NCBI GenBank assembly: GCA_009602725.1 | Contig: WELB01000026.1 | Span: 159,990-223,989 of the forward strand | Source: Spirogloea muscicola | Taxonomy: Eukaryota | Length of the DNA stretch: 64,000 nucleotides | Direction of reading: 5' to 3' | Shown here: positions 8,661-60,195 of the stretch, piece by piece | Numbering within the stretch: position 1 is the first letter of the stretch | Layout: the number at the start of each line of letters is the position of its first letter | The notes under the pieces: model-generated | Seen by the model: only the letters and a program-made list of their open reading frames with translations | Database searches by the model: none | What the model was told of the DNA's origin: nothing | Position numbers and translations under genes: made by a program

Positions 8661-9334
8661 AGGGGGGAGGGAGGCGGGGACGGCGGCGGCCCTGGGCGGG
8701 CTATGGGGATGGGACGGGGGGTGGAGGGTGGTGGATGGAAGAGAAGGGGGCCTTGTTCGACGCCTCAACTGGGGAGCCACTTGGGAGCAACAGCGCGGCC
8801 CCGTCTCTCGTCGTCGGGCCCGCCTCGCTCCGCATCACCACTTTCACAGTTCGTTCATTTCTCTGGGCTGGCCAACTACAGCCATCGCCGCTGTGAAAGG
8901 AAGACTGGAAGAGTCTTCCTTTCCCAGTGACACTGGCTTGATCTGGTCTCCCTCTCATTTTAAGCGAGAGAAGGCGCGCGGCGCGCAAGAAATGAAAAGG
9001 GAGGCCAAATCAAGCCAATACATTGTTCAGGTAAAGGGGAAAAGCTCATTCCAGTAGGAAGAAGTGCGCGCCCATAGAGAAGAGAGGCTGGCAAAGCCAG
9101 CCCAAAAAAGAATGGACAATGTCCAAAGCCAAAGAAAGAAGAAGAAGTGGCTCTCCCAATGGGGGCAAGGGCTGTGAGAAGCCAGCCCGAAAAGAATTGA
9201 CAAGGTTCGAAGGGGCCAAACTACGAGCTAAGCAGCGACTGCGGGGCCTGAAGAGGCTATGGCAGAACGGGGGAGGATGGACCACTTAGTAGTTACGAGT
9301 GAGGAGCCGGAAAGAAAGCGGAGCCGGAAAAAGG

Positions 9335-10327
9335 CCGACCTGCGCGGGCGCGCGCGTTTCCACTCGGCCTCCTCCCCGGGGGCCGCGGCGTGGCTCCAGG
9401 CCCTCCCCCTCAATGAAGCCCTCACCCTCCCGGTTGAGGCGTTCCGCAGTGCCGTCCACCGGCTCCTGGGCTTGCCGCCGCCATGCCTCCAGGGCGTGCA
9501 ACAGTGTGAGTGTGGTGAGCGAGGGGCCGAGCAGGGGGAGCTGGCCGCTCATGTTCTGCGCTGTTCCCACGGCGGAGAGCGGACCGCGGCCCATGACCAT
9601 CTCAGGGATGCGATGCATGGCATCCTCGTGGAGGCGGGCTTCTCGGTGGCAGCCGAGAATTCTGCCGTCATGCCGCTCCAGCAACGGGCCGACGGTCTCC
9701 ACGCTCGTCGCGTGGACCTTATGGCCACCCCACCGGCAGGCGGGCCACGTCTTCTCCTGGACGTGGTGACCACCAACTCCTATGACCGCTCCCATCCAAC
9801 CCAGTGTGCCACCAAAGCTGGGTATGCGGTAGCCTGCGCAGCTCGGGCCAAGGAGCTAAAATACGCAGATCACCCGCGGGAAGACATGTTCTTCCCGCTC
9901 GCCATCGATACGCACGGGGCGCTGGGCGCTCGGTGGCTCGAGCTGCTTGACCAGCTCTCTCGTCACGCCATTGCCCGCCGCTTCCATGGGGAGCCGGTGG
10001 ACTCCCATGCAGCAGGGTCGCTAGCGCAGGTGTACCGCATGCGCTTGGCCGTCTCGCTGCAGAGGTCTATGGCCCGCGCGCTGCACCTGCGTGCAGGCAG
10101 AGCCCTCGCCGCTGCCTCTGGCTCTGGCCAGGGAACCCGCTTCCAGGAACCGAGTCTCTCTGACCTGAGGCTGCTTAGCAGGGGTTACTGAGTGCTTCGT
10201 AGCTGCTTCGCTTCTTTTCTGTGCTTGTTGTTCTTCGTACTTCCCCTGGCCCCTTCTCGTCCTTTGTACATTCTTTTCTGGGCTCGCTTTTTCCAGCCCC
10301 TATCCTCAATGGGCGAGCCCTTCTCTC
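9335..10327 (+). mobile_element. 5'-truncated CRE-like element, family A (zinc knuckle + RLE domain + 3' UTR)
   Basis: Open frame CECG..HVLRCSHGGERTAAHD..RRVDL..LLDVV..AKELKY..FFPLAIDTHGALG..SLSDLRLLSRGY* (stop 10191), then a 3' UTR; related copy at 57576-58444. Confidence 0.9.
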
Positions 10328-10564
10328 TGAAAAAATAAAAAGGAAAAAAAACAGAAAAAGGACGGATTCCAGTTCGCCGGCTGGCTCCCACGTTGGCTGG
10401 GTGGACGTGGCACGCAGCGCCTGTGCAGGAACGCGAGCACCCCCTGCTGGCCTGCCGCCACGTGGCCTGCTAGGCCCGGGCGACATTCTCGTGTATTTCG
10501 GAACCAACGAAGGCCAATGTTGGACGAAGGGCGATGTTGGACGCCGGGCACTTGTGATAGAAAA

Positions 10565-10996
10565 GAAAAGATGGCCAATTGCGGAGCTGCGTGCTTGGTG
10601 GTTTCGGCCTTTGGCGCCAAATGGCTGGACCTCCTTCACCGCCTTGCGCGGCGAGCAGCGGCCCGCCGCGACGGGCAGCAAGGCGAGCAGCCTGGCTTCC
10701 ATGTCGCCGGGTCCCTCGCCCAAGTTTACCGGATGCGCCTGGCCGTCTCTTTGCAGCGGTCCCTAGCTTTTGCGGTCCACTTGCGCGCAGGCCGCGCTCT
10801 GGCGGCGGCCTCCGGCTTCCGTCAGGGCGACGTCTTTCCGCCTGCTAGCTACTCAGATTTGCATCTACTGACGAGAGGTTACTGAGAGTTCGCTTACTGC
10901 TGTCTCAGTCCTTAGCACTCCGACTCCTTCAGACCTTGTCCATTCTTTTGGGCTGGCCTCTCCCAGCCACCAGTTAATCTGGCCGCGCTTGCTCTT
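10565..10996 (+). mobile_element. 5'-truncated CRE-like element, family E
   Basis: AFGAKWLDLL..YRMRLAVSLQRS..ASYSDLHLLTRGY* (stop 10885); its tail recurs at about 11040, 13915 and 25140. Confidence 0.8.
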
Positions 10997-12680
10997 TCGG
11001 CCTCCCACCTGCTAATTACTCGGACTTGATGCTGCTCACCTTGTCCATTCTTTTGGGCTGGCCTCTCCCAGCAACCAGTTAATCTGGCCGCGCTTGCTTT
11101 GCTCACTCGTGGGTACTGAGCTTCCCATTTTTCCATCTACGGTCGTGTAGTGTCTAGCTGGGTAATTTTTCTTTTCGGCAACTTTTGGCTCTTTGGCCCT
11201 TGTCCATTCGTTCTGGGCAGGCCTTTCCCAGTACCTACCCCCCAGCTGGGCGAGCAAGTTTCTTTTAGACCTTACTTCTTAGACCTTGTCCACTCCTTAT
11301 CCTTGCGGCTGCTTATTAGGGTTACCAAGTGACCATTCTTCGTGGTACTTACTTAGTTGTGTGTTTCAACGCTTCCGGCCCCTTCGGACCTTGTCAACTG
11401 TTATCGGGCTGTGGCTTTTCACAGCCCTCTCCCCCTTTGCACAAGCTTACTCCTTCAAGGCTGGCCTTTCAGACTGGCTGGCTTTCCACAGCTCTGGCCC
11501 TGTTTGAAAGAGCATCTTCTTTATCACAGCCCTTGCCTCCTCCGAAACTGCTTCTTCCTCGACAACAAGCTGCCCACTCCTTCCTCGTTTGGGCTCCCGG
11601 CATAGCACAGCATGGCCGCACAGCCGGACCAAAGAGGCTCCGGGCACGCTGAGGCAATCTTTGGCAAGCCAGGGTGCTCCGCCTGTTTGGGCCCCTTCAA
11701 TGCAGTCCTGTAACTGCATGCCTCGCATACATGCTTGCCTACGCATAAATGCCTGCCTTGCTGCTTGCAACCTACCTAGCCCGCCCAGGCTGGTGTCAAT
11801 AGTGCTTCTTCTTCCGACACGAATGTGACAGTGGCATGCTTGAGGAAGTGTCCTATCAAAGTCATGCTGCAACATCCGGCTTCTATGAACCTGTGCACAT
11901 ATGCCGAAGTCAAGCGCAAATCTTCACCATGTTGGCACATCTGCATGTCCTTGTTAAGTGTCCCTTAAGATAACATCATTTGTGGTACTTGCATAGCTAT
12001 GTGTTTTAGCACTTTCCGACCCCTTCGGACATTGTCCATTCTTTCCGGGCTAGGTGTTCCCAGCCCTCGCCCCCTTTTGGAAGAGCTTACTTCTACAGGC
12101 GGAGAGGCACGTAAGAAGTCGGCTCAATCAAAGAGAATCTGGAAAGACTGCTCTTTGCGGGCTTTCCAACCACTGTTTCCTCACAGTATCGGGCCTGTAT
12201 CTCTAGGCCCTTTCTCACTAGGGGTCTTGTTGCGCCATTGACCAAGGCAGCTAGGAGCCTTGGGAATGGACATCCGCCGTGGTCTGCAACTGTAAACTTG
12301 CTGCGTGGGCTGGATGCAGTTGTGGGGCTGATTGGTTGACAGTAGCATATAATGACGGTACACAGTTGACTCACTCAAGGTGATAACATTAAGAATGCCG
12401 AGTGGAGACCTCTGTGGCCTTCTACTGCCAGTCCATAAGGTCCAGCACGTAGAACCTGCAGTAACTCCAATCTCAAAAAGTCACGCTCGTTGAAGACCAT
12501 AGCAGCTAGTATATAGCACATTTCTTGTTCCACTCCAGTCCTCATGAGCTCGTGGCTCTGGCATGCAGAGACAGAGCCACCAGAGCGATGATGTAGATGC
12601 AGGTGATAGCCTTCTGCTCATTACTTATTGTGACACTTGATAACGAGCTGTATACCTGGCAGGAGCTGCAAATGTGGAGG

Positions 12681-13473: not shown

Positions 13474-14546
13474 GCCCCTTGTCAGCCCAGCACGGCCGGA
13501 GTGGCGAGCTTCCGCCGGGCAGGATGCGCCTCTCCCGCTTACGCTGTCGGGCGCCGGGGTTTTGGGGGCCTAGCGGGGGCTAGCGGGAGCCAAGCGGGGG
13601 ATGCGGCGGACGCCCTGGGTTTACGCAAGCTCTGCCGAGAACAAATCTCATCCACAACGAGAGAGACGCTTCCACGAGAGGGCGGTGGCTGGTAGAAGAA
13701 GAAGTGCGCGCCCTTAGAGAAGAGGGGCTGGCAAAGCCAGCCCAAAGAGAGAAAGGCGCGCGGGGCGCATGAAATGAAAAGGGAGGCCAATTCAAGCCAA
13801 TACACAGTTCAAGCAGAGGCGAAAAAAGAATGGACAATGTCCAAAGCCAAAGAAAGAAAGAGGAGCCGGGAAAGAGAACAACAAGCACTAAAAAGAAACG
13901 AAGCAGCTACGAAAGCAAGCGCGGCCAGATTAACTGGTGGCTGGGAGAGGCCAGCCCAAAAGAATGGACAAGGTCTGAAGGAGTGCTTCGAAGCACTCAG
14001 TAACCCCTGCTAAGCAGCCTCAGGTCAGAGAGACTGGGTTCCTGGAAGCGGGTCCCCTGGCCAGAGCCAGAGGCTCCCCCAATGGGGGCAAGGGCTGTCA
14101 GAAGCCAGCCCGAAAAGTATTGACAAGGTTCGAAAGGGCCAAACTACGAGCTAAGCAGCGACTACGGGGCCTGAAGAGGCTATGGCAGAACGGGGGAGGA
14201 TGGACCACTCAGTAGTTACGAGTGAGGAGCTGGTAGAGGCCAGCCCAGATGAAAGAATGACAAAAAGGACTCTTCCAGAAGTGGGCGATGGCAGTGATGG
14301 ACCAGCCCAGAGAAGAATGCGAATCCAGAGAATGCGCGCGGTTGCGCATGAAATGAAAGCGAGCCCAAATCAAGCCAATATACTGTCCGGAATATAAGCT
14401 CATCCCAAGGGGCCAGCCCGGAAAGGAGGATTAGAAAGAAGGTCGCTTTCGGCTATTCGCGGCTGCTGATGTAATAAGGGGCGGCTGTGTGAAACAAGAA
14501 AGCAAGCTCTTTCCCGAATAAATAAGCTCTTGCGGAGGGGGCGAGG

Positions 14547-15265
14547 GCAGCCTGCCTCTGCGCGCTCCCCCTGTACGATGCCCTCAGGATGCCGGATGAA
14601 CTCTTTTGTACGGCCACCCATCGCCTGTTGGGTCTCCCCCCGCCCTGTCTGCTTGGCGTGCTGCAGTGTGAGTGAGTGTGGGGAGCGGTCGACGGACCCG
14701 GCGGAGCTGGCGGCGCATATCCTTGGAGGCGAACGTACAGCTGCTCACGACCTCCTCCAAGACGCAATGTTCGGCATCTTCCAGGAGGCTCGATACACGG
14801 TTGCGATGGAGAATACGTCTGTCATGCCAATCCTCCAGAGGGCCGACGGACCCTCACGCGCCGCGTCGACCTGGTGGCGCCCACGCCGGGCGGCGGTGTG
14901 CGCATCATTGCTGATGTGGTCACCACTGATGTGGTCGACCGCTCCAACCCGGGGCTCTCTGCCTCGCGGGCTGGCCACGCTGCGGCGAAGGCCGCTCGAG
15001 CTCGCAGCAAGGCGGCCAAACACGCCGACCACCCGGCTGCAGATGAGTTCGTACCCCTGGCTGTGGACGTGCACGGGGCTCTCGGGTCCCCGTGGCTCGA
15101 CCTGCTGGCCAGGCTTGCGCGGCGCGCTGTGTCCCGCAGGCGCGGTGAGCCGGCTGACTTCAACGCCGCTGGCTAGTGGGCTCAGGTATATTGCATGCGA
15201 TTGTCAGTCTCCCTTCAGCGGTCCATGGCCCACGCCTTGCATCTGCGTGCTGGCCGTGCTCTCGC
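14547..15265 (+). mobile_element. Truncated family F CRE-like copy (RLE region), inverted relative to the adjacent long copy
   Basis: Highly similar to the reverse complement of about 15310-16030; small indels. Confidence 0.85.
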
Positions 15266-15267
15266 TG

Positions 15268-18200
15268 ACTAGCTGCCGGAAAACTATGCCCCTGACAAAA
15301 GCCGGAGGCCGCAGCGAGAGCACGGCCAGCACGCAGATGCAAGGCGTGGGCCATGGACCGCTGAAGGGAGACGGACAATCGCATACGATATACCTGAGCC
15401 CACTAGCCAGCGGCGTGGAAGTCAGCCGGCTCACTGCGCCTGCGGGACACAGCGCGCCGCGCAAGCCTGGCCAGCAGGTCGAGCCACTGGGACCCGAGAG
15501 CCCCGTGCGCGTCCACTGCCAGGGGTGCGAACTCATCTGCAGCCGGGTGGTCGGCGTGTTTGGCCGCCTTGCTGCGAGCGGCCTTTGGCGCAGCGTGGCC
15601 AGCCCGCGAGGCAGAGAGCCCCGGGTTGGAGCGGTCGACCACATCAGTGGTGACCACATCAGCAAAGATGCGCGCACCGCCGCCTGGCGTGGACGCCACC
15701 AGGTCGACGCGGCGCGTGTGGAGTCCGTCGGCCCTCTGGAGGATTGGCATGACAGATGTATTCTCCATCGCAACTGTATATCCGACCTCCTGGAAGATGC
15801 CGAACATAGCGTCTCGGTGGAGGTCGTGAGCAGCTGTACGTTCGCCTCCAGTGGCGCAGCGGAGGATATGTGCCGCCAGCTCCGCCGGGTCCGTCGACAA
15901 CTCCACACACTCACACTGCAGCACGCCAAGCAGACAGGGCGGGGTGAGACCCAACAGGCTATGGGTGGCCGTACGGAAGCGTTCATCTGGCATCCTGAGG
16001 GCGTCGTACAGGGGGAGCGCGCAGAGCCAGGCTGCCGCGCCAGGGGAGGCGGCCGACAGCAGCCGAGCATGGCCTCGCACATCTGTGGGAGGGAGGAGCT
16101 GCAGCGTGGCCATAAAGGACGCCTTGTCGACTGCCGCAATGTACCGCGCCTGCGCTTGCGAGTCGGTGGAGTGGGCAAGGTGGGCAAACGGGACCAAGCT
16201 CTCTGCGAGGGCAGGGTGCTCCGCAAATAACTCATCTTGAGCTGAGCGGAGCGCCACCTGAAAAGGCAACGAGCCGCTCGCCTCAGCCTGCTGCAGCATG
16301 GGCCGCCCATCATGGAAAAAGCAATGTGCCACCGACGTGGCGACCTGAGCCCAACTGCTGAGGAACGCTGGCCTGCAGATGCGAGCGAGCGAGCGGCAGC
16401 CGAGGCCGCCATGGCCGGGGGGCAGAGTGGCCTGGTGCGCCGCAGCGGGCGAGTCGAGGAAGCCCGGGTGACGGATGAGGGCCGCCACGCTCTCCATGAC
16501 GCCCGCGTCGAACTTGGTGTGGGCATCCAGCACCTCGGGGCAGGGAGGGGTCTTCTGCGCCAGGTATTGGGGACGCTGCACAATGCATCTGGTGAGCATA
16601 GCAAGCGCCAGCTGCATATCCTGCAGCTCGGGAGGTGGGCCACCGGCTGGAGGTGCTCCAGGAGCCGGTCGCGCAGTTGCCCGTAGACAAAAGACGGCGT
16701 ACCGAATGGGACCCCCAGGATGGTGAGGCCGCCTGGGCGATTCTGGCACCCGGGCGGCAGGGGCAAGGGGGCAGGGAGGCCACGCGGGGACCACGCGATG
16801 CACTTCTCGGGCTGGATGGACATGCCGAGGGCGGCCAGCTGCTGCTGGAAGGTGGCGGTGGCTGCTAACACATCCCCTGAGCTGCCGACCAGTGTGGTGT
16901 CGTCGGCGTAGGACGGCAGGAGGACGCCGGGGTGCGCTGCTGCAGTTGCCTTGAGAGCGCGGTTATGAGCCAGCGCAAAGAAGAACCCTGCCAGAGGATC
17001 CCCCTGGCGTGTGCCCGTCCTCGACTGCAGCGTCTCCACCTCGCCACTCCCTGTCCGCCAGAGAAGGTCGCTGGGCTGGCCGTAGCCAAGGCGGAAGAAG
17101 GGAAGGAGGGAAGGGAAGGCCGCTCGCAGCTCCTCGGCGATGGCGCTGCGCTCTACGCTGTTGAAGGCGTTTTGGACATCGACAGCCAGGACCATCCAGT
17201 CAGGGTGGATCTCCGGAGAATCCGGAGATCCAGGGCCGCACGGATGCCGTGGACGACAGCCTCCCCGCCACTGCATAGCCCAGCGCTGTGGGGCAAGGTG
17301 GGTCTGCGCCTGCCCGAGATGTTGCTGCCACAGCGTGCGGGCCACCACCGGTACAGAACCTCGCCGATGGCGATGGGGCGGACTCCGCCATTGGCCTTGG
17401 CGATGGCGAGGAGGTTGCTGGAGCAGAGCACCGAGCGGGTAGCAGCAGGGACCTTTTCCTGGGCCACGAGCTGACAGACTTGGAGCAGTGCCTGGAAGTC
17501 GGAGGCCTCGCCCTCCAGGAACAGCTCACGGAGGTGCTCCGTGAGCATGCCAGAGGGGCCGCCTGCTGCTGCTCTGCGGCTGCTCTGGAGGACCCGGCGG
17601 GGGGTTGCGGCGTCGAGGGCCACCGCCTCTGGCAACTCGAAGGAAGTCAGCCAGGGGGGGAGGGGGCACGGGCTTCGGGATGGATGGCGTCCAGGGCACG
17701 TCTGGTTGTCGAGGTCGGTGGAGCCAGCGAAGAGTTCTCAAGTGCTTGCACAGCCCGCCAGAGCTCGCCGGCGTGTCCAAAGCCAAGAGCACGCCGGATG
17801 GCCGCTGCTCTGTCGGACGACGACTCCCCACGCCAGGCGTGGCGACTGGCGGCGGCTGCTGCCACTGCGGCGTCATGTTGCGCCAGGAGCTCCTCCCATC
17901 GCCCATTCTCGAAGAGGTGGATGCGTTCCAGAAGGGGCTGGCGGCCCTGGCTGCGGCCCTCATGCGGCACCCGGCCCAAGAGCAGGCGAGGGAAGAGGAG
18001 GTGGTCCACGCCGCTTGGTCGCGGTGGTCCGCTGCGATGCGGAGCAGGACAGGGCGGAGGGCGCGGCGGATGTGTGGGCGTGCCCAGCGGGGAACGTGGC
18101 GGACGAGGGGGAGCGCCGCCTGCCTGAGAACCGCGGCTAGGTCAAGGTCCACGGCCCACTGCCAGTGGTGGCGGCTCGGTTGTGCTGGGCGGTGGGACAG

Positions 18201-18570
18201 TCCTCCCGGGGCCGCTACGGCGAGCACCGGCTGGTGCTGCTCGTCGCGCCTGTTCCGCGCGACTGTCGCGACGGGCGCAGGCGAGCTCATGCTGGGCCAA
18301 GCTGCGGGGGGTGGGGCAGGGGCCCTGGCAGTGCCGGCACAGCAGAGGGGGAGGCGGGCTGGGCGGAACTGAGGGGGGGGGAGGCGTCGGTTGTAACGGT
18401 GGAGGGGAAGGTGGCGGCTGCGAGAGAGGAGGCGGAGGCGGCGGTAGTGGCGGCGGCGGGGGTGGCGGCGGAGCTGGCGACGATGGCGGCGGCGACGGCG
18501 GCGGTGGCGGCGGCGACGGCTGCGGGGGCGGCGGCGCTGGCGACGCTGTGGGGGTTGAGGAGGAAAGGGG
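15268..18570 (-). mobile_element. Near-full-length CRE-like non-LTR retrotransposon, family F (frameshifted)
   Basis: Pro-rich N-terminus, CRHC-x12-H-x3-C finger, AAGGPSG, VRPIAIGEVLYR, VDVQNAFNSV, GTRQGDPL, SYADD, LGVPFG, GGLG, then CECV..H..C..GGERTAAHD..RRVDL..DVV..KAAKH RLE. Confidence 0.92.
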
Positions 18571-18750
18571 GAAAAGCGCGCGGGGCGCATGAAATGAAAA
18601 GGGAGGCCAATTCAAGCCAATACACAGTTCAAGCAGAGGCGAGTGCAAATTAAACAAGGCTACGTAATACAGAGACCTAAACTAAGGTGCCTAAGGTGAC
18701 ATTAGTTCCCACGGGAGAGCACAAACAAATCGGACAAGCTAACTTGGGGA
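18571..18750 (-). mobile_element. Family H 3' end (SLSDLFVLSRGN* + tail)
   Basis: Reverse strand reads PQVSLSDLFVLSRGN*; its tail TATTGGCTTGAATTGGCCTCCC..CGCGCGC also occurs at about 8970, 13750, 14335, 25530, 49410 and 59920. Confidence 0.75.
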
Positions 18751-18769
18751 GCTGGAGCGCCGCCACGAA

Positions 18770-19415
18770 ACCTACAGTAGATTGACCCTCTCAGAAACCA
18801 CGGGTCAAGACATAAAGGTCGCTAACCGATGCCTGAATACTAGATGGCAGATACGGAGCCCTTCTGCCACCAACTAGAGCTCGCCCAGCTTTCTAGTGCA
18901 AAGCGTTAGCCTGAGCACGCTGCAAACAGGCCGAAACTCGTCGTCGCAACAACGACAGATAAGCAGCTGGCAAGCCCATCTCAGCCGGGAACATATCTGC
19001 ATGTCGTGTGTAGCCTAGATTGGCTATGTTTTGAAGGAGAGTAAGGAAACGAGGACCTAAGCAGCCAAAGATGTCGATTGCCGCTGGCAAGAGCTGATCA
19101 CATCGGGGGTAATCGGAGTAGTGCTGCAACTTTCTTTGTTCAGCACTGCCCACTGCGTGGCCAGCGATGTGTGTCGATGCTGGACCTTTATAGGCCTCCG
19201 TAACCACAATATCGACCAAAGCCCTTGGTCCTCCACCAGGTTGCACGCCCACAATGTCAAGTGTGCGGCCATGATGACGTCCCTGGGCATCCGTGGTGAT
19301 AGGCATGATGTTGTTCACTTCCACGACCGCACGGTACCCGGCGTCGCGCATCAAACCCGCCAGAGCATCACGGAGGAGGTTGTGGATGCCCACCACTTCT
19401 GGTCCAGTGGGGCAT
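18770..19415 (-). mobile_element. Truncated CRE-like element, family D (RLE domain)
   Basis: HNLLRD..RTLDIV..LVDIVV..RKLQHY..LPAAIDIFGCLG..SVSDLYVLTRGF*; related copies at 24168-24666 and 49770-50165. Confidence 0.85.
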
Positions 19416-20342
19416 CGCAGAGGCAAGGGCTGTGAGAAGCCAGCCCGAAAAGAATTGACAAGGTTCGAAGGGGCCAAACTACGAGCTAAGCAGCGACTGT
19501 GGGGCCTGAAGAGGCTATGGCAGAAGGGGGGAGGATGGACCACTCAGTAGCTACGAGTAAGGAGCCTCACATCTGACTGAGTTTCCCTCTGCATCGTTTC
19601 TGTGTTCTGCAGTGTTTTATAGTGTAGTCCTTTCTCCCTCGCTGCTGCCTCTCGCTGCTGCCTCTGGCTCTGGCCAGGGGACCCGCTTCCAGGAACCCAG
19701 TCTCTCTGACCTGAGGCTGCTCAGCAGGGGTTACTGAGTGCTTCGTAGCTGCTTCGTTTCTTTTCTGTGCTTGTTGTTCTTTGTACTTCCCCTGGCCCCT
19801 TTCTCCGGCTCCTCTTTCTTTGGCTTTGGACATTGTCCATTCTTTTTTGGGCTGGCTTTGCCAGCCCCTCTTCTCTATGGGCGCGCACTTCTCTCTTAGC
19901 ATAGGGCTTAATCACATCCGACAGACTAGCCGCTGGAAAACTATCCCCCTGACGAAAGCCGGAGGCCGCAGCGAGAGCACGGCCAGCAAGCAGATGCAAG
20001 GCGTGGGCCATGGACCGCTGGAGGGAGACGGACAAGCGCATACGATACACCTGAGCCCACGAGCCAGCGGCGTTGAAGTCAGCCGGCTCACCACACCTGC
20101 GGGTCACACAGCGCCGTGCAAGCCTGGCCAACAGGTCGAGCCAGTGGGATCCGAGAGCTCCGTGCACGTCCACAGCCAGGGGGACGAACTCATCGGCAGC
20201 CGGGAGAAGGGGCCAGGGGAAGTACGAAAAACAACAAGCACAGAAAAGAAACGAAGCAGCTACGAAGCACTCAGTAACCCCTGCTAAGCAGCCTTAGGTC
20301 AGAGAGGCTGGGTTCCTGGAAGCGGGTCCCTTGGCCAGAGCC

Positions 20343-23300
20343 ACACACTGAGAGCGCGCTCTGCACGTTGATGAAGAGCCAATGCTTGCGAGCGCAGCAA
20401 ACAAGGCGAGAGCCGCATTCTAGAATATGCAATTAAGGCCTGTGGAACGCTGGAGTGGCCCAAGCTGCCCCCCCGACTTTTACGACGCGCATCAACCAGC
20501 CGGGCCAGATGCTGGATCAGGGAGGACCACTTCACGCCGTAGCCGCCGTAGATAACCATGGCACACGGGCAAAGATGGTCCCCTCGGGGATGGTCCTGGT
20601 AGTGCCGCTCCTTCTTGCGCTCCGCGCTGGACGTGGCCCAGCCAGACACGGTTGACGTGGGTGCGCCAGCCTTGTATGCGTCGATCAGTACCACGTCCAG
20701 GAGCAGACGAGGCCCACCGCCCCGGGGGGTGCCGACCACGTCCAGACGCCGCACGTATGGCTTGCCGCGCCTGAAGGAGATTGGCATGATGCCGGACACC
20801 TCCATCGCCGGATGATACCCTGCGTCTCGCAAAATTCCAAACATTGTATCCCTGAGTAAGTCGTGGGAGGCAATGCGCTCACCCCCCTCAGCACACCTCA
20901 GCATGTGCGCAGATAGGGCGAGCTTGTCATCGGCAATGTGGCCACACTCGCACTGGCGGATGCCAGCCAAGCAAGGGGGGGGGAGGCCGAGGTGGTGATG
21001 GAGCGCGGTACGAAACAGGTTGTCTGAGAGCCGAAGGGACTCGTATATCGGCAGAGCATTTAACCACTCCGACGCGCCTGGGGAGCTGATGGAGAGGAGC
21101 CGGGAGTGAGGCCACGTCCATCGTCCTTGAGCAGTCCCTGCAATTCAGAGGCGGCCTGCACGTCCGCAGCGTGAGAGTAAAGGCCCTGCGCTTTCCTGTC
21201 AGAACAGCGTGCCCATGCCGCAAAATCTGCATGACCCTCTGCAAGCGTTGGTAAGCGGCACGAGAGGTCACGTAGTGCTGCGGTTAGAGAAAGCTGGATG
21301 GGCAGGTTCCCTGTTGCAACACCCGCTATGGCGGGTGCTAAAACAGCCTGGCCCCTCAGGATGAAGCGACTGGAGATGGTGGAGGCCACTTGGGCCCAGG
21401 TGAGCTGCTTGGGACAGGCGAGCCAATGGACGGCACCCAAGGCCGCCTTTACTGGTGGGTAGGGTACACTGTAGGATGGCCGCGGGCGTGGCGGATAGGT
21501 CGGGATGGTCCACTAGGCCATGAAGAGCCTGTTGAAGTCTGGAGTCCACGATAGAGTAGATGGCGTTTAGTGCAGTGGTGGGGGGCACAGTCCGCAACAG
21601 GTAAGTGGGACGCTGGGCCACACACCGAGTGAGGATGGCCACCGCAAGCTGCGCGTCCTGTAAGGAGGGGAGGGCGGGAGGGTCTGGAGATGGTTCTCAA
21701 GGGTGGACTCCACAACTTGCTCGACATGCGCAGCAGCCCCCAACGGGGCTCCAAGCACCACCATGCCGAGTGGTGGGGTCTGGCACCCAGCCGGCAGCTT
21801 GATGGAGGGAGGGATGCCGGTTGGAGACCAGGCTGAACACTTCTCTGGCCGGATGTTGAGGCCGAGGGTGTGAGGCGCTCCGACGTGCTGTAAGCGCTGG
21901 TGACTTCAGTTGGGGGCCCCACCAGGGTGGTGTCGTCTGCGTAGCTTGGGATTAGCACGGCAGGGTGGGCCTCCGCCGTATTACGCAGCGCACGTAGGTG
22001 TGCCAAAGCAAAGAGGAACCCGCCCAAAGGGTCTCTCTGCCGGGTGCCTGTGCTGGATTGCAAGACCACCTGTGACGTGCCCGCTCCCAGAGCAGTCGGG
22101 AGGGTGCTCCGTAGGAACACCGGAAGAAAGGGATGAGGGAGGGAAAATGCGTGCGCAGCTCCTCGGCGATGACACCGCTGTCAACACTGTTAAAGGCATT
22201 CTTCACGTCCACAGATAGAGCCATCCAATCGGGATTGCATTTCAGGGCAACACGTAGACCATGAACCACTGTCTCCGCGCCCGCAGACAGCCCTGCGCCA
22301 AACTGGTGTGGAGAGAGAAGTGGAGCTGCGCCGCCTCTCTGTTCTGCTGGAATAGGGTTTTTGAAACCAGTCGGGTAAGGACCTCACCCATCGCAATTGG
22401 TCGGACGCCTCCGGTGGGCTTGGAGAGAGCGAGCAGGGTGCTGCTGGTGAGTGCCGCCCGGGCCTTGGGTGGGAGGAGGCCGCGCGCAACCGCTTGGCAC
22501 ACTTTGTGCAGCAGACTGAAGTCACCCGCCTCGTCGTCGAGCCAGAGCTCTCGAAGGTGTTCAAAAGGCATGCCCGAGGGCCCTCCGGCGGCTGCTTTCG
22601 GGCTCTGCACCAGCGCTGTCTGAAGAGCTGCTGGATTGAGGTCCACCATGGTCGGGGGCTGAAACTCCTCGAGCCAGGGGGGTAGGGAGCTTGGGGCAGG
22701 GTTGTGTAGGGTCTGGAGAGCAGCAAGGGTCTATGCGTCGTGAGGTGCTGGGGTGGCTGGGTCCAGAGCTTGGGCAGCTCGGAAAAGGTCCCCTGCGCGG
22801 CCGAAACGATTGGCTCGGCGGACAGCTGAAGCCTCTGAGGTGGCTGGGGTGGGCCGATTCGCCTGGGACACCTGGACAGCTGCGCGATGCTCCTCCAGGA
22901 GCTGCTCCCATGCACCGCCCTCAAAACGCTGAATCCTGGCTAGCATCACCGCGCGTTGGCTTGGACCACTTGGAAGGGGTCCCAGGACTAGGCGAGGGAG
23001 GAGGTGCCAGACAGTCCACGCAGCTTCGTCAAAGCTGTTCCGAGCCATCCGAGTGAGTAGGGGCCGCGAGGCTCGCTGGATGTGTGGCCGTGCCCAGTGG
23101 GGGATGTGCCGCAAGGTGGGCAGACTGGGTTCCAGCATGACCGCATCTAGGTCCAGGAGCCTTGCCCAACGCCACTGAGCCAGCGAGGGAGCTGGGGGAG
23201 GGGTGTCGGGGCTGGGGTGCCGGGCTGCCGTCGTCGGTTAGCGGCCTCAGCAAGGGCTTGGGTCTGCTGCTCGGCGCGATTGGCCTTCCTGGAACAGTGG

Positions 23301-23897
23301 CTCTCGTGCATGCGAACGCTCCGCAGGCTAGGCCAGGGGTGCTGGCAGTACTGGCAGATTTGGGGGACAGCAGTAGCCGCAGAGCGTGTGGATGCAGCCG
23401 CTGCAGCTGCAGGGATGGCGGGAGTAGGAAGGAGAGGCGGGAGAGCTGAAGCCATCGGGGGCTGGGGCCGACGACCCCTCCTGCGCCTGTTACTGGAACC
23501 ACTTGGGCCTGAAGGAGCCACGTCGGCGGTAGTGGCAGCAGAAGCGGCAACAGCAGCAACAAGGGCAGCGGCAGCGGTAGTCGCCGGAATGGTGGATGCC
23601 GGGATGGTGGACATGGGAGGGGCAGTTGGAGGAGCAGGGGCCGCCTCGCTCGTACTCGGGCCGTCTCCGCCCCGGGAAGTGGCTGCAGTGGCCCCGCCAC
23701 CCTCCCTGCGTGCACTGTTCCTGGCCCGGGGTGGCGACTTGTTGGGGCAAGCCCGCTTTGGACGAGGAGGCGGCAGCCGCACGCTAGAGAATATCATACA
23801 CCCTGCGGCATGAGTGGCAGGGTGCAAGGGCGTGCTCGGCTGCGGTGCGACGGACAGCGGTACTGCTGAGGGAGGCGGGACAGGAGGTGATTGACGG
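20343..23897 (-). mobile_element. Long decayed CRE-like non-LTR retrotransposon, family G
   Basis: CQYC-x12-H-x3-C finger, GVRPIAMGEVLTR, VDVKNAFNSV, GTRQRDPL, SYADD, GGLG, CECG..HMLRCAEGGERIASHD..RRLDVV..RKKERHY; multiple frameshifts. Confidence 0.9.
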
Positions 23898-24167
23898 ANG
23901 GCGAGGCGCCCGGGGCGGCATCGGGCGGGGCGCCCGAGGACGCGCCGGGGCCTGGCGCGGCCATGAGCTCGGCGGCGCGGGCGCGTTAGCCGGCGGTGGC
24001 GTGGGGCAGAGGGGCCGCCGCCGGCGCCGCCGGCGGCGGGAGCGGCGGCGGCCCGGGGGGACTCAAAGGGCGGGGGGGGGGAGCCGTTGGGGGGCGCGAA
24101 AGCACGAGAAGGCAAAGAGGGCGGAGAGGGCGATGGATGAGGAGGGGGGTGATGGAGGCGGTGAAAG

Positions 24168-43519: not shown

Positions 43520-43560
43520 CGAGGCAACGGCTGTGAGAGGCCAGCCCAGAAGGATGAACC
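43520..43560 (-). mobile_element. Isolated remnant of the retroelement 3'-UTR hairpin upstream of dNK
   Basis: GGCTGTGAGAGGCCAGCCCAGAAG matches the shared tail module. Confidence 0.55.
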
Positions 43561-48399: not shown

Positions 48400-50240
48400 G
48401 AGCGGCTTCTGCTTACTTATGTCATCAGAATTTTCCGGCCCCTAAGGACCTTGTCCACCCTTGACACGGGCCCCGCCCCCTTTGGAAAGAAACAGCTCTT
48501 CCAATTTACGGCAATGGCTGTGAGAGGCCAGCTCAAAGGAACGTACAAGTTTTGAAAGAAAGAAATTGCTCGCCCTTAGAGAATGGAAAGGGCCGGACGG
48601 CGCCAAAAGCAGGAAGGGCTCACTTGTTATTCTATGCGCCTCCTCCGCGCCTTCTCACTTTCCGAGGTGGCGGCGCGACGAAGCGAAAGCGCGTCCACGT
48701 TGAGAGCAGTGGCTGTGAGAAAGAAAGTGCCTCTCCCAATGCTGTGAGAGGCCAGCCCAAAGGCGCGACGAAGCGGGGCCGCCAGATGGTGCCGGCAGCT
48801 CTCCCCGGCGTCGTTGGTGGCAGCGCCGCTCAGGGCGGCGCTTCCCCACGTCTGAAAGATCCGGCGGCAGCCGCTGTCGCACGTGGCTTTCTCTTTACTC
48901 TGCGCACCGCGCGCCTACTCTCTTAACGGCTGCTCAACTGGGGATATTGAGCACCCAGTGGCCACAGTCGCTGTTTAGTTTACGGCTTTTCTGGCCCCTT
49001 CGCTCTTCATTCACTCTCTTTCCTGGGCTGGCCAAGGACAGGCATCGCCCTCACCTGGAAGAGTCTTTCTCTCACGTGGGCGCCCCCCTATTTCCGCGCC
49101 GCCCCCACTTTCCGGTTCGACCGCCCACCTGCCCAGGCTTCACGTCAGCCAGCCTAGCTCTGCACTTCTTTGCCCTTGAACGAACAGCGGATTGGCTCGG
49201 CTTGGCCTCCTCTCCGTCTCCTGGGGTGCACACTGCGCTTTGGATATTGTTCATTCTTTTTGGGCTGGCTTTGCCAGCCCCTCTTCTCTATTGGCGAGCA
49301 CTTTCTTCTTCTTTCCACCGTCTGCACCCTCGGCTCTTAAGATTGCCAGAGTAGCGCGTTCGAATGAGGCCGCTTGTTTGCACGCCCTTTGCCCTCCGCA
49401 TGAACATAGAATTTGGCTCTGCTTGGCCTCCCTTCTATATTAGATTCACGCGCACCGCGAGCCCTTCCCCCTCTCGCCCCGGCTGCCCTTGTACATCTCT
49501 GGCGAACTGAGCCCTCTGCTAAGTCGCGCCGCGTAGCTGGGAGACTTTTAGTATGCCAGTGTATCCTGCATCGCACAACCTCCCTGTGCAATGAAGAAGC
49601 TCTTCCAAGGGGGTGATGGCTGTGGATCCTGGAATGAGCTTATTCCTTCGGGGTTGTTGAGCACCCAGTATTTAGCACTTGCGTAGCTGTGATTTACAGC
49701 GCTTTCTGGCCCCTTTGGACCTTTTCTAGTCTTTTTGGCCGGCCTTTCAACAGCCATCGCCCTCGTCCGGGATCGCCAGCGGCAATCGACAACTTTGGCT
49801 GCTTAGGTCCTCGTTTCTTTACTCTCGTTCGAAACATAGCCAATCTAGGCTACACACGACATGCAGATGTGTTCCCGGCTGAGATGGGCTTGCCAGCTGC
49901 ATATCTATCGTTCTTGCGACGACGAGTTTCGGCCTGTTTGCAGCGTGCTCAGGCTAATGCTTTGCACCAGAAAGCTGGGCGAGCTCTACTTGGTGGCAGA
50001 AGGACTTCGTATCTGCCATCTAGTTTCAGGCATCGGTTAGCGACCTTTATGTTTTGACCCGTGGTTACTGAGCGGGTCTACTGTAGGTTATGTAGGTCAT
50101 AAGATGTGCTTGCCTTTGTACTTGGCCATTTGGCCTTCGTTTGTTTCAAATACACGAGATTTTCCTTCCGGGAAGAGTTTTACTAGATTGGAGTAGATGC
50201 CCAACTCCTGTGCCGTGCCCTGCCAGCCCCCCGCCCCTTT
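48400..50240. mobile_element. Cluster 4 of CRE-like fragments, including a family D copy (49770-50165, +)
   Basis: Repeated tail modules; PAAIDNFGCLG..RRRVSACLQRAQANALHQKAGRAL..LTRGY* (frameshifted). Confidence 0.8.
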
Positions 50241-51540
50241 TGGAAGAGCTCACTTAATTTTTGACCCTGCGGATCTGAGCCGCGCTCCTGCTCCTCGTGG
50301 ACGAGTCAGCTCGCGGCTGCCCACGGTAATTCAGAAAGGACGAGCGGAAGAGCTGCGGCGATGGCAGTGGCAGCAGACCAGACAGCGGACCCTTTGGCAT
50401 CTAGGCACACCGTGATGGTGAGAGTCGCACTCAAACGGGAGTGAGCCAGATGCGGCCTGAAGCCACCGCAGTGAGCCACAGAAGAAAGTAACGTGTATTT
50501 AGCCACACAGATGTTCTGCGGCCCAATTCGATAACCCGAGAGATTAAGATACAAGACATACAGATAGCACTGCTGATACCTGACGCCACGTCACATGCAC
50601 GGCCAATGTCTTCTCGAGGCTGCACAAGCTTTTGTCAGCAATTGTACGCGATCAAGGCCCTTCTCCCTCCTCCTCCACTCCTTGGTTCACAAGGTTCTCT
50701 GCTCAACGTTGGACATGTATGTGTGCAAAACAACAACGTAATTGATGCACCGAGGAGCTCATACCCCTCCGGCACACTTTGAGGTCTTCGCTGAAGCTGA
50801 CATCAGGCCTGATGCTAACCAACTGTGTTGCTGGTTGCTACAGAAGTAAAAGAAATATGAACTCGTTGATCTGTTTCACAATTTGTTCCTTCAGTGAAAG
50901 CCATCTATCTATCTCTTGCCTTGTCTATTACGCACCACCTCATTGCGATATTGCATTCCTTTTCCTTTACATACTTCAGGAGATGTGAAACTTTTACAAA
51001 AAGCTGCACATTGATTGACTATTTGCAGATTACTTCCCGTGCAACAAATGAGAGTAGGTTTTACACAAAGTAAAAGTACACTTCTGGTGTTTATTGCTCA
51101 ATGTCATGACTCTATTTCTTAAAATAACACATAGAACCCTCTGAATTTGTACTAGCTTCATATCCTACTCCAACACTTTCTAGAAGGCAAAAACATCGGA
51201 GTATCTCCATAAGGTTACCAACGTGATTTACACCTCAACTCGCCAGATACGTCGGTGATTAGCCAAGGAAGGGCACAGGCGCACTGCGTACATTGAACGG
51301 GGCATACAGGTGGTCACTAGGACCACCCCGTACATCAGTATTTGATTTAATAGCAATATTCAAGCACGACAAGTTGCTGCACAGCAAGAATGTCAATGAA
51401 AGAATAAAAGAATCAATTGGGGCCTCTAGAGGAAGCACTTGAGATGCTCATGACACAGAGAGGGCAATCTAATCATAAACTCGTCGCTGGTTGTCCAATG
51501 CTGCGGCTAATTGCCACAATAGCCATCCAATTTCGGCCCC

Positions 51541-55344
<3,804 letters not shown>

Positions 55345-55958
55345 NNNNNNNNNNNNNNNNNNNNNNNNNNNNNNNNNNNNNNNNNNNNNNNNNNNNNNNN
55401 NNNNNNNNNNNNNNNNNNNNNNNNNNNNNNNNNNNNNNNNNNNNNNNNNNNNNNNNNNNNNNNNNNNNNNNNNNNNNNNNNNNNNNNNNNNNNNNNNNNN
55501 NNNNNNNNNNNNNNNNNNNNNNNNNNNNNNNNNNNNNNNNNNNNNNNNNNNNNNNNNNNNNNNNNNNNNNNNNNNNNNNNNNNNNNNNNNNNNNNNNNNN
55601 NNNNNNNNNNNNNNNNNNNNNNNNNNNNNNNNNNNNNNNNNNNNNNNNNNNNNNNNNNNNNNNNNNNNNNNNNNNNNNNNNNNNNNNNNNNNNNNNNNNN
55701 NNNNNNNNNNNNNNNNNNNNNNNNNNNNNNNNNNNNNNNNNNNNNNNNNNNNNNNNNNNNNNNNNNNNNNNNNNNNNNNNNNNNNNNNNNNNNNNNNNNN
55801 NNNNNNNNNNNNNNNNNNNNNNNNNNNNNNNNNNNNNNNNNNNNNNNNNNNNNNNNNNNNNNNNNNNNNNNNNNNNNNNNNNNNNNTGCATCGCCGCGCT
55901 GGTCGTGCCCTTGCAGCAGCCTCTGGCTTGCGCAGCGGGGTTGCTCTTCCTCCCCTCA

Positions 55959-56228
55959 GCTCATCTGACTTCCTACTGCTGACACGGGGTTACTTAGAGC
56001 GCCCTGGCTGTCTAGCCTGTGGCTCCGTCATGAACACCTGTATGCATCTGGCTGGCTTTCACAGCCGCTCTTTTAATATCAGCAGCCGCTTGAGGCTCAT
56101 CTGACTTCCTACTGCTGACACGGGGTTACTAAGAGCGCCCTGGCTGTCTAGCCTGTGGCTCCGTCATGAACACCTGTATGCATCTGGCTGGCTTTCACAG
56201 CCGCTCTTTTAATATCAGCAGCCGCTTC
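55959..56228 (+). repeat. Tandem duplication of a ~134-bp retroelement 3' end (SDFLLLTRGY + short tail, family I)
   Basis: 55959-56090 is nearly identical to 56095-56228. Confidence 0.85.
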
Positions 56229-57575
56229 CTTTTTACTAAGTGCTTACTCGTCATTACCAAGCGGGTCAGCTTAGCAGCAGGTGATGTACATCTGTCAATG
56301 TGCTTTGTATTTGGCCACTCAGGCCCTCCATCACTCAATACACACCACTCTGGACGAGCTTACTTTCCTGGCAGTCCAGGCCGTCAGCCCACGTGCGGTG
56401 CGCATAAAATGTGAGGGGGCCAAAGCAAGCCAGTACACCGTGTAAGAAGAAAGGCAAAGTGAAGGAAGTCCCACGCTCGGATGGGCTACCACCCGCCTTT
56501 CTGGCAATGGTGCCGAGTCGTCGCATGGGATTTCCCCATATCTCTGTCCTTTCACTCTTTGGTCTTGCAGATTCGTTTGGGCTGGCCTCACAGCCATCCC
56601 CTTACATTGGAAGCTGTTTCTTTCGCTGCTCTTACTTGCGGCTGCTGACCAGGGGTTGTTGAGCACCTATCTGTTGTAGCCAATTGCGTAGGTGCTTTCG
56701 ACGCTTCAGCGCTTTCCGACTCCTCTGCACCTTGTCCATGTTTCATCGGGGCTGGCCTCGAAGAGCCCTTGCCTTGCACCTGCGTGCTGGCCGTGCTCTC
56801 GCTGCAGCCTCTGGCTTTCGTCAAGGGGATTGCTTTCCGGCTGCTAGTCTTTTGGATCTGCGGCTCCTCACTCGTGGTTATTGAGTGATTTATCCTACCC
56901 CAGTTCTGAGACGGCGCTTTTGGCCCCTTCAAATCCTGTCAAATTGGGCTGGCTTTTCACAGCCCATGCCTCCTTTGAGAGAGCCACTCCCTCTTTATGG
57001 AAGCTGCCATCCTTGGTGGTCTCTTGCTTTCCTGAGTAGAATACACCTTCTGACTCCTGTGGACTTTGTTCATCCTATTGAGGCTGGCCTCTACTGCTGT
57101 TGTCAACCAGCATTGTCTACCAGCCTTTGCCCCAGATTGACAGCAGTGGCTGTGTGGCCAGCCGAAAGAAAGAAGTGGCTCTCCCAATGGGCTTTGCTAG
57201 CCCCTCGTCTCTCCCCTCGTCTCGGGCGATCAATTTCTTCTTCAATAAGGGCAAGGGCTGTGAAAGAACGAACGGCGCGCCCTGAGAGAAGAGAGCGAAG
57301 GGCTCGCCCATTGAGGATAGGGGCTGGAAAAGCCAGCCCAAAAACGAATGAACAAAGTACGAGAAGGGGGCCAGGGGAAGCGCTAGGAAAAACAAGCACA
57401 ACAAGAAACAAAGCAGCTACGTATTACTCAGTAACCCCTGCTAAGCAGCCTCAGGTCAGAGAAGCTAGTCTCCTGGAAGTGGGTCCCTTGGCCAGAGCCG
57501 AAGAGGGGCTAGCAAAGCTAGGACAATGGAAAGAGGAGAAGTGGCTCTCCCAATGGGGGCAAGGCCTGTGAAAAG

Positions 57576-58444
57576 AAGAAGAAAGGGCTCGCCCATTGAG
57601 GATAGGGGCTGGAAAAGCCAGCCCAAAGAAGAAGGAACATAGTACGGGAAGGGGGCCAGGGGAAGCGCTAAGAAAAACAAGCACTACAAGAAACAAAGCA
57701 GCTACGTGTTACTCAGTAACCCCTGCTAAGCAGCCTCAGGTCAGAGAAGCTAGGCTCCTGGATGTGGGTCCCCTAGCCAGAGCCAGAGGCAGCAGCGAGG
57801 GCTCTGCCGGCACGCAGGTGCAGCGCGCGGGCCATAGACCTCTGCAGCGAGACGGCCAAGCACATCCGGTACACCTGCGCAAGCGATCCGGTTGCAGGAA
57901 AGTCCACTGGCTCCCCATGGAAGTGGCGGACGATCGCGTGGCGGGTGAGCTGGTTGAGCAGCTCGAGCCACCGAGCGCCCAACGCCCCATGCGTGTCGAT
58001 AGCCAGCGGGAAAAATTCGTCTTCCTGCGGATGATCAGCATATTTGAGCTCTTTAGCTCGAGCGGCGCAGGCGACCACATACCCAGCCTTGATGGCACAT
58101 TGGGCTGGGTGTGAGCGGGCGTTTGCGTCTGTGGTCACCACGTCCAGCATAAGACGTGGCCCGCCGGCTTGTGGGGTGGCCACAAGGTCTACGCGACGTG
58201 CGTGGATACCGTCGGCCCTTTGCTGGAGCGGCGTGACGGCGGAGTTCTCCGCTGACACCAAGAAGCCAGCCTCCACCAGGATGCCATGGATCGCATCCCG
58301 GAGGCGGTCGTGGGCCGCTGTCCGCTCTCCGCCGTGGGAACAGCGCAGAACATGAGCGGCCGGCTCCCCAGGCTCGGCCCCTCGCTCGCCACATTCGCAC
58401 TGACGCACACCCTGGAGGCATGGCGGCGGCAGGCCCAGGAGCCG
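57576..58444 (-). mobile_element. 5'-truncated family A copy with a 6-bp TSD
   Basis: Similar to 9460-10327; GAAAAG at 57570-57575 and 58445-58450. Confidence 0.88.
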
Positions 58445-60195
58445 GAAAAGCCAGCCCCGAAGGAATGGACGAAGTCGGAGAGAGCCGGATGGCGCAGAAA
58501 GCAGGATACTAGTCTTTCAGACGTCAACAAGTGGGCTCTCAGAAGAAGTGGCTATCCCACTTGGGGGCAAGGGCTGTGAAAAGCCAGCCCGAAAAGTATT
58601 GACAGAGGGTCGAAGGGGCCACAATGACGGATGTCAGAAGAGGGGAGAAGAAGTGCACGCGCCCATAGAGAAGAGGGGCTGGCAAAGCCAGCCCAAAAAA
58701 AAATAAAATAAAGATAAAGATAAAGAGAAAAAAAGAAAAAAAGAAGTGCGCGCCCATAGAGAAGAGGGGCTGGCAAAGCCAGCCCAAAAAAGAGTGGACA
58801 GTGTCCAAAGCCAAAGAAAGGGGAGCCGGAAAAAGGACTACACTACAAAACACTGCAGAACACAGAGACGATGCAGAGGGAAGCTCAGTACCCACGAGTG
58901 AGCAACATCAAGTCTGAGTAGCTCGCTGCAGGGAAAGAAGAAGTTCGCGCCCATAGAGAAGAGGGGCTGGCAAAGCCAGCTCAAAAAAGAATGGACAGTG
59001 TCCAAAGCCAAAGAAAGAGGAGCCGGAAAAAGGACTACACTACAAAACACTGCAGAACACAGAGACGATGCAGAGGGAAGCTCAGTACCCACGAGTGAGC
59101 AACATCAGGTCTGAGTAGCTCGCTGCAGGGAAAGAGGCACTCCGCCGAAACCCAAAGGCGGCGGCCATAGCACTGCCTGCTCGCGTGTGGAGGGCGTGGG
59201 CAAGGGAGCGTTGAAGCGATACGGCCAGGCGCATGCGGATGACTTGTGGGAGCGAACGGGCGGCGTTGAAGCCGGGCATCGCCCCTGGCAGACCCGGCCG
59301 CCGGTCAATGGCCTGGCGGTCATGCCGCTGAAGGAGATCCAGCCAGCAGTTGCCGAAAGCCCCGTGTACATCCATCGCCAGGGCCGCGAATTCATCCCAT
59401 CCCTTCTCTTTTCCTTAGAGAAGCGCAGCCTGATCTCTTCCGTGTGCATCCTCCGCTGCTTCGCTCGTAGTCTGGCCCCTTCGAACCTTGTCCATTCTAT
59501 TCGGGCTGGCTTCTCACAGCCCTTGCCCCACTTCTTCATCCTCCCCCGTTCTGACATAGAAGAAGAAGAAGTGGCTCTCCCAATAGGGGCAAGGGCTGTG
59601 AGAAGCCAGCCCGAAAAGAATTGACAAGGTTCGAAGGGGCCAAACTACGAGCTAAGCAGCGACTGCGGGGCCTGAAGAGGCTATGGCAGAATTCATCCTC
59701 CCCCGTTCTGACATAGCCTCTTCAGGCCCCTAAGTAGCTGCTTAGCGCTTTTTAAGCGCCTCCATCATTTGGCCCCTTCGAACCTTTGTCAATTCTTCTT
59801 CGGGCTGGCTTTTCACAGCCCTTGCCCCCATTTCTTTTTTTTGTTCTTTTTCCAGGCCCCTTCTTTCCGAGGTAGAGCCCACTTGGCCTCGGGGAAGAAC
59901 TCGTCTGCCTCCGCGCAAGCGCATGAAATGAAAGCGTAGCCAATGTATGCCAATATTCTGTTCAGACAAAAAACTGCAGGGGTTTGGTGTCGCTTCGTCG
60001 ACGTTCAACAAGAAAGCCCAAAGACATAATCGAATGGTGGCCGCAAGCCGAGAAGCCCCATTCAAATCCCAATCCCCCGCCTCCCACACTGCCTCCTCCC
60101 CACCGGCTCCCACCAGCAACCCCAGAGCACAAGCCCGAGAGCGCGCCGCGGCGGAGATCGCGGCGGCCCCCGCGGCGCGCGGTGCGGCGGGCGCC

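What the first reader, a model, noticed from the sequence alone, without database searches (positions are those of the whole stretch)
8860..59965. Multi-family CRE-like retrotransposon community that accumulates just upstream of host gene starts
Seen in sequence: each cluster abuts a gene 5' end. GLX1 ATG 8660 has its first remnant at ~8860; Romo1 ATG 13473 at 13694; CCDC115 ATG 27057 at ~26900; eIF2B-beta ATG 31343 at ~31410; kinase (tentative ATG 47963) at ~48400; HR-lesion ATG 60196 at ~59960; a lone remnant at 43520 lies upstream of dNK. The four convergent 3'-3' intergenic regions (2730-3519, 28580-28864, 39332-40307, 61611-62152) and the introns show no copy that I could see. Established: RLE-type CRE-clade elements usually target repeated sequences such as spliced-leader arrays or telomeres. 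Inference: these families target Pol II promoter-proximal DNA, either via open chromatin or by tethering, which would be unusual for this clade. One divergent promoter (62746-63349) lacks them.
Basis: partly seen in the sequence, partly recalled or inferred. Interest (0 to 1): 0.85.

Follow-up and report, generated by a model that had tools for sequence, protein, structure and literature searches.

The report
Promoter-side piles of nested algal retrotransposons
In this green alga, several families of an ancient retrotransposon type have piled up inside one another beside gene starts while staying almost entirely out of gene bodies, which likely reflects a preference for open promoter-flanking DNA, although selection alone could still explain it.

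Summary
The repeats are real. About 21 kb of the window is R2-group (RT plus restriction-like endonuclease) non-LTR retrotransposon DNA from at least eight families, in six piles; the closest named hits are Spirogloea muscicola gene models. Each pile has an edge roughly 40-450 bp from a host start codon.

The contrast with 3' ends is weaker than claimed. It is 0 of 4 convergent versus 6 of 8 scorable other gaps (p=0.03); the convergent gaps are short, and the one tested is covered by RNA contigs. Two promoter regions lack copies, two piles also reach a neighbour's 3' end, and one old remnant lies in a first intron.

Most pieces sit in other copies (3-8 bp target duplications, same-strand runs), so independent seeds number about ten, not ninety. 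TTC availability does not explain the pattern: gene spans have similar TTCTT density but 0 of 27,133 bp by BLAST.

Best reading: relaxed-specificity insertion biased to accessible promoter-flanking DNA, amplified by self-nesting (0.5). Selection alone 0.3. CRE membership fits motifs but could not be tested against named members, and no genome-wide test was possible.

The parts
8840..12097 (.). Pile 1, between the GLX1 start and the Romo1 3' end: 13 tiled pieces, including family A endonuclease half 9352-10330 (+) and family B nested in family M (9058-9334, -)
13659..26975 (.). Pile 2, between the divergent Romo1 and CCDC115 starts: 32 tiled pieces, 89% covered
15262..18545 (-). Long family B copy: zinc-finger-like motif, RT, zinc knuckle, PD-(D/E)XK endonuclease; frameshifted, 3' UTR missing, joined tail-to-tail to an inverted 3' part (14546-15267, 92%)
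   Evidence: RVT_1 E=6e-14; motif; fold Z 19.0 to R2
18560..24100 (-). Long family C copy (ORF remnants 20347-24100, 3' UTR 18560-18769) interrupted by 1.6 kb of nested pieces of other families (18770-20346)
   Evidence: tblastn; joint 18770-20347 in contigs of other copies
31410..34960 (.). Pile 3, from the eIF2B-beta start to the PHP 3' end; includes a second family C copy (from 32440, -; 91% to the first)
   Evidence: right edge read from the sequence
43497..43560 (-). Lone family S 3' remnant upstream of dNK; probably shared by the other homeologs
48400..50262 (.). Pile 5, upstream of the kinase; 1.3 kb without a hit on the permease 3' side
54958..55011 (-). Probable old family S remnant in intron 1 of the amino-acid permease gene
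   Evidence: nhmmer 8.7 bits, E=0.099, controls at most 4.1; alignment
55887..59964 (.). Pile 6, between the divergent permease and HR-lesion starts: 22 tiled pieces, including family A endonuclease half 57575-58445 (-) and a 197-bp tandem of family M

Best explanation
These are high-copy, mostly 5'-truncated R2-group non-LTR retrotransposons that have inserted into one another with short target duplications, and whose piles were likely seeded by a preference for accessible DNA beside CpG-rich gene starts. Shown: RT plus RLE anatomy; at least eight families sharing a 3' block that ends in a short T/C tail; nested insertions at differing T-rich sites; same-strand runs; near-absence from gene bodies. 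Inferred: target-primed reverse transcription needing only a few T-rich bases of tail-target homology; regional choice set by open, probably unmethylated chromatin; self-nesting as the amplifier; selection removing remaining genic hits.
For: (1) TTCTT per kb: gene spans 2.84, convergent gaps 3.09, free 3'-side DNA 2.78, upstream 3.95, so the motif does not explain 0 of 27,133 genic bp. (2) In two tandem gaps the only elements lie at the 5' side, with 2155 and 1300 bp empty towards the neighbour's approximate stop; the first is free of high-copy DNA by depth. (3) All 10 host 5' regions measured are CpG-island-like (GC 0.68-0.79, CpG o/e 0.87-1.34) versus o/e 0.40-0.42 in two convergent gaps and one intron-rich stretch. 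(4) Young pieces (at least 95% to another copy, at least 40 bp): 10 of 30 within 900 bp of an ATG versus 6 of 41 beyond, p=0.058 (hand tally, tested). (5) Four nested insertions show 3-8 bp duplications at different sequences. (6) Same-strand neighbours 61 of 82 versus 47.5 shuffled, p=0.00025. (7) The single intronic remnant is in a first intron.
Against: Only one window and about ten independent seeds. Convergent gaps are short and the one tested is transcribed, so they offer little neutral target. No correlation of copy age with distance to ATG (rho 0.04, p=0.75, n=83). Two piles also reach a 3' end. Two promoter regions have no copy. The 5' end of the second family C copy is CpG-rich but has no pieces upstream. 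Methylation and accessibility are inferred from CpG content only. Split references inflate the strand statistic somewhat. Gene limits are approximate, and an unannotated gene may start near 50360.
Confidence: 0.5

Rival explanations
1. Insertion is close to random apart from self-nesting. Selection removes hits in exons, short introns and 3' UTRs, and the only tolerated space in a compact genome happens to adjoin promoters.
For: Convergent gaps are 283-974 bp and one is covered by RNA contigs. The outermost remnants are mostly old (70-82% to their best match, or no match). Two tandem piles fill the gap nearly to the 3' end. No age-distance correlation.
Against: Empty 1.3-2.1 kb on the 3' side of two tandem gaps. 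Pieces sit within about 100 bp of two start codons, where insertion should be costly. Short pieces in introns of a triplicated genome should often be tolerated, yet only one weak case was found.
Confidence: 0.3
2. The element protein is tethered to a Pol II promoter-bound host factor, as S. pombe Tf1 integrase is to Sap1 and Atf1, giving a fixed integration window upstream of the TSS.
For: 9 of 16 young pieces end within 900 bp of an ATG, a band of about 17% of pile DNA (binomial p=4e-4; events not independent, null diluted by long ORFs). Further young pieces lie just upstream of the CpG-rich 5' ends of the long B and C copies.
Against: The count-based test gives only p=0.058. Orientation relative to the gene is mixed. 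The outermost pieces are old. No tethering domain was identified beyond one zinc-finger-like motif.
Confidence: 0.12
3. Remnants are kept near starts because their 3' block works as a promoter element; it carries TGGGCY, the plant site II motif bound by TCP factors (recalled).
For: TGGGCY occurs 84 times in 26.5 kb of piles versus 44 in 35.8 kb outside. Two further single-copy contigs join the 43520 remnant to unique DNA at 43672, suggesting retention in all three homeologs (shorter side only 25-29 bases).
Against: It does not explain kilobase piles. The triplication is recent, so sharing needs no selection. No expression test was made.
Confidence: 0.08

Closest known systems
CRE clade (CRE1/2, SLACS, CZAR; fungal Cnl1, MoTeR, FoTeR)
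   Same: One reading unit with RT followed by zinc knuckle and PD-(D/E)XK endonuclease; endonuclease spacing fits the SLACS/CRE pattern quoted in PMC12857005; target duplications form (PMC3636483); many truncated copies.
   Different: No spliced-leader, telomere, tRNA or snRNA target was found in the window. Knuckle spacer is 12 rather than 7-8, and RHD reads AHD or SHD. Many families, dispersed, at very high copy.
Cryptococcus CNL1
   Same: Called CRE-type in PMC7175516; reported to insert preferentially into copies of itself, with 0-13 bp duplications and insertions of 180 bp to about 3.5 kb (PMC12139950).
   Different: CNL1 arrays are subtelomeric; these piles lie beside housekeeping gene starts and mix at least eight families.
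S. pombe Tf1
   Same: Integrates almost always into Pol II promoters, in either orientation (PMC7175516).
   Different: Tf1 is an LTR element with an integrase, and its targeting was shown with new insertions; here only standing copies were seen.
R2 (solved structures 8ibw, 9dou)
   Same: The C-terminal half folds like the R2 thumb-linker-knuckle-RLE region (Z 19.0, rmsd 4.1, 312 aligned).
   Different: Only 13-17% identity; no rDNA target; no Myb domain detected in the element fragments scanned.
HERO clade and other non-specific RLE elements (EhRLE3, YURECi)
   Same: RLE elements without a strict target are known (PMC4640811, PMC3636483).
   Different: No promoter-side piling was mentioned in the passages read.

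Membership tests
R2 group (RLE-type non-LTR) | Non-LTR RT domain | tested here: met
   RVT_1 E=6e-14; a profile of relatives ranks R2 (E=4e-45) above LINE-1 (2e-21)
R2 group (RLE-type non-LTR) | C-terminal zinc knuckle plus PD-(D/E)XK endonuclease after the RT | tested here: met
   Motif in 4 of 5 copies tested; model pLDDT 93.5; all 7 Foldseek matches at E<=0.001 are R2; Z 19.0
R2 group (RLE-type non-LTR) | 5' truncation, simple 3' tail, no terminal repeats | tested here: met
   Many pieces are anchored at 3' ends with T/C tails; depth at 3' ends is 10-40 times depth over the RT
CRE clade | RT groups with named CRE, SLACS, CZAR, Cnl1 or MoTeR in a tree | not testable with these tools
   No named member among the names shown; the 28-row tree has no named anchors or outgroup
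CRE clade | SLACS/CRE endonuclease-domain spacing | tested here: inconclusive
   Catalytic spacing fits; knuckle spacer and first residue of RHD differ; 48 of 74 long relatives keep R (pattern from PMC12857005)
CRE clade | Target site duplication | tested here: met
   3-8 bp duplications at four nested insertions, of eight junction cases printed
CRE clade | N-terminal zinc finger(s) (feature recalled) | tested here: inconclusive
   One CX2C-X11/12-HX3C motif in each of the three long copies; true 5' ends not established
CRE clade | Typical target in spliced-leader arrays or telomere repeats (typical, not obligatory) | tested here: not met
   No tRNA; no Rfam match reaching a gathering score, 4 weak ones; no telomere array; four different nested target sequences. 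Rfam may lack an algal spliced leader.
Promoter-targeting elements (Tf1-like) | New insertions concentrate upstream of Pol II starts | not testable with these tools
   No genome held; only contigs, no raw or long reads

The most novel reading that the evidence does not exclude
A whole community of CRE-like endonuclease retrotransposons has traded sequence-specific targeting for targeting of Pol II promoter flanks, building a nested pile upstream of a large share of all genes in a land-plant sister alga, with the oldest remnants now part of the promoters.
Probability: 0.3. Interest if true: 0.85.

Novelty: new variant of a known kind. Interest (0 to 1): 0.55.

Why it matters
RLE retrotransposons are the textbook sequence-specific non-LTR elements, and promoter targeting is best known from an integrase-bearing LTR element (Tf1). 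A promoter-flank preference in an RLE lineage would show that this machinery can be steered by chromatin or a host factor rather than by sequence. Very many copies in a recently triplicated genome make it directly testable, with homeologs as built-in empty-site controls. It would also mean these elements shape upstream regulatory DNA in a member of the algal class closest to land plants. If selection alone explains it, it is still an undescribed high-copy, self-nesting community that contaminates the gene models.

Tried and rejected
- Whole genome: none held, so no genome-wide map.
- Earlier findings: none for this genome or by sequence.
- Pol III or small-RNA target: 0 tRNAs; 4 weak Rfam matches, all below gathering score; 0 Rfam matches in 15 of the 80 related loci.
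- TTC microsatellite availability as the cause of position: rejected.
- Assembly artefact: unlikely, since exact single-copy contigs span several junctions, though probably from the same sample.
- Metagenome scan: 80 loci kept of 220 confirmed, none matching the window's families beyond short conserved or low-complexity stretches; their flanking genes were not annotated.
- Chimeric gene models as a proxy for position: of 4 with a recognisable host part, 2 have the element N-terminal, 1 on both sides, 1 C-terminal; too few and biased.
- Stable 3' hairpin: 0 of 10 ends fold clearly better than shuffles (z from +0.12 to -1.59), so structure is unproven despite sequence conservation.
- RNA: no holder was on record as RNA. 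X5 behaves as RNA (one intron joint seen only there). Its lack of cover at 44091-45089 is not used as evidence.
- Protein atlas: not answered.
- Literature: eight searches listed no paper whose title or abstract start describes these elements or promoter-side piling by an RLE element. Repbase and the species' genome paper were not seen, and no supplements were read; any of these may already list the families.

Full report
SOURCE. No genome is held. The closest named protein hits to the elements are EukProt Spirogloea muscicola gene models: 3 of 10 looked up, 7 of 10, and 10 of 11 hits with the same identifier style, at up to 94.7% local identity. Laid contigs show diverged homeologs of host genes, which fits the recent triplication stated for this species in PMC11604088 (passages read). 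The species assignment is inferred from element proteins, not from a host gene. More distant relatives occur in Klebsormidium, Chlorokybus, Closterium and Riccia.

WHAT IS THERE. Tiling with 24 window-derived references gave 89 hits and about 21 kb; 88 hits lie in six piles and one low-complexity hit was dropped, as were hits to the GC-rich first 135 bases of the two long references. Three long copies carry RT remnants (15262-18545, 20347-24100, from 32440; all minus strand). The RT hits RVT_1 at 6e-14. The C-terminal half has a zinc knuckle and PD-(D/E)XK motif in 4 of 5 copies tested, models at pLDDT 93.5, and matches R2 structures at Z 19.0 and 18.1, far above the next at 7.4. At least eight families can be told apart by their 3' ends, and most share a roughly 70-base terminal block ending in a short T/C tail. 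Summed contig depth in run X1 is 51-76 for single-copy contigs, about 9,000-22,000 over the RT and 200,000-400,000 in bins rich in 3' ends. The tool warns this is no copy number; read as an order of magnitude it suggests hundreds of long copies and thousands or more of truncated ones. Gene models from other scaffolds stitch together the same families, so mixed piles are not confined to this window.

POSITION. Every pile has an edge roughly 40-450 bp from a start codon. Gene spans (27,133 bp, approximate limits) hold no BLAST hit. A sensitive profile gave 64 of 66 hits in piles, one probable old remnant in intron 1 of the permease gene and one probable chance hit. A library-free depth check over 38430-48390 found only the 43520 remnant bin clearly high; the other three convergent gaps were checked only with window-derived references.

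HOW THE PILES GROW. Four of eight junction cases printed are clean nested insertions with 3-8 bp duplications, B in M, C in M, Q in A and Q in M, each at a different T-rich sequence. The long C copy is split by 1.6 kb of other families, and contigs of other copies join across it. Neighbouring pieces share a strand in 61 of 82 pairs against 47.5 expected (p=0.00025; references split in two inflate this a little). This fits target-primed reverse transcription primed by a few bases of tail-target homology (inference from established mechanism), and resembles CNL1, reported to insert into its own copies with 0-13 bp duplications (PMC12139950, passages read). The positional claim therefore rests on about ten seeds.

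AGE. Identity to the best other copy does not correlate with distance to a start (rho 0.04, n=83). Outermost remnants are mostly old. Young pieces are 10 of 30 within 900 bp versus 6 of 41 beyond (p=0.058); a length-based null gives p=4e-4 but is diluted by long ORFs and treats linked pieces as independent (hand tallies, tested). Host 5' regions and the 5' parts of the long copies are CpG-island-like, while convergent gaps and an intron-rich stretch are CpG-depleted. This suggests methylated gene bodies and open 5' flanks, but neither was measured.

MECHANISM AND ODDS. Relaxed-specificity insertion biased to accessible promoter-flanking DNA, amplified by self-nesting and trimmed by selection: 0.5. 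Selection and target size alone: 0.3. Protein tethering like Tf1: 0.12. Retention as promoter elements: 0.08.

MEMBERSHIP. R2-group identity is met. CRE clade is likely by endonuclease spacing (pattern in PMC12857005) and duplications (PMC3636483), but no named CRE member was among the names returned and the tree of 28 rows has no anchors. PMC4640811 states that CRE, R2, R4 and NeSL are mostly target-specific and HERO often is not; PMC7175516 gives Tf1 promoter integration and calls Cnl1 CRE-type. Seven papers were seen as passages only (PMC12857005, PMC3636483, PMC4640811, PMC11096116, PMC12139950, PMC7175516, PMC11604088); all others only as search listings. The names of the two genes without Pfam support, the site II motif and the Nup133-like label of one chimeric model are recalled.

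VERDICT. A real, apparently undescribed, very abundant self-nesting community of RLE retrotransposons with a suggestive but unproven promoter-side bias. New variant of a known kind; interest 0.55, and 0.85 if genome-wide targeting holds.

Noticed in passing
window 14546-16036: Family B 3' part present as a 92% identical inverted pair joined tail-to-tail near 15265; both arms lack the 3' UTR.
   Followed up: partly
window 18560-20350 and 24165-24700: Groups of young short pieces lie just upstream of the CpG-rich 5' ends of the long B and C copies, as if these mimic gene starts.
   Followed up: partly
window 50262-50480: Moderately GC- and CpG-rich stretch with an ATG and a possible splice donor near 50360-50425; may be an unannotated plus-strand gene start, which would make this gap divergent.
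   Followed up: no
window 43523-43672: Two other single-copy contigs join the remnant to unique DNA, suggesting the insertion predates the triplication (short side 25-29 bases).
   Followed up: partly
window 62856-63169: Two 159-bp GC-rich tandem copies (85%) in the element-free divergent promoter before the RNA polymerase subunit gene.
   Followed up: no
window 38305-38427 and 55222-55344: Identical-length 123-base A and T runs beside gaps, likely assembly filler; gaps fall at GC-rich gene starts. The 136-bp tandem at 55959-56227 (99%) may also be an artefact.
   Followed up: no
window 26929-27010, 31618-31655, 56311-56350: A further short repeat family not in my reference set; one copy appears to end about 50 bp before the CCDC115 ATG.
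   Followed up: partly
P0002, P0003, P0004, P0026, P0027, P0048: Public gene models of this species are contaminated by stitched element fragments.
   Followed up: partly
L017 1-7916: A distant relative occurs as three same-strand copies in tandem in a metagenome contig; no Rfam match.
   Followed up: partly
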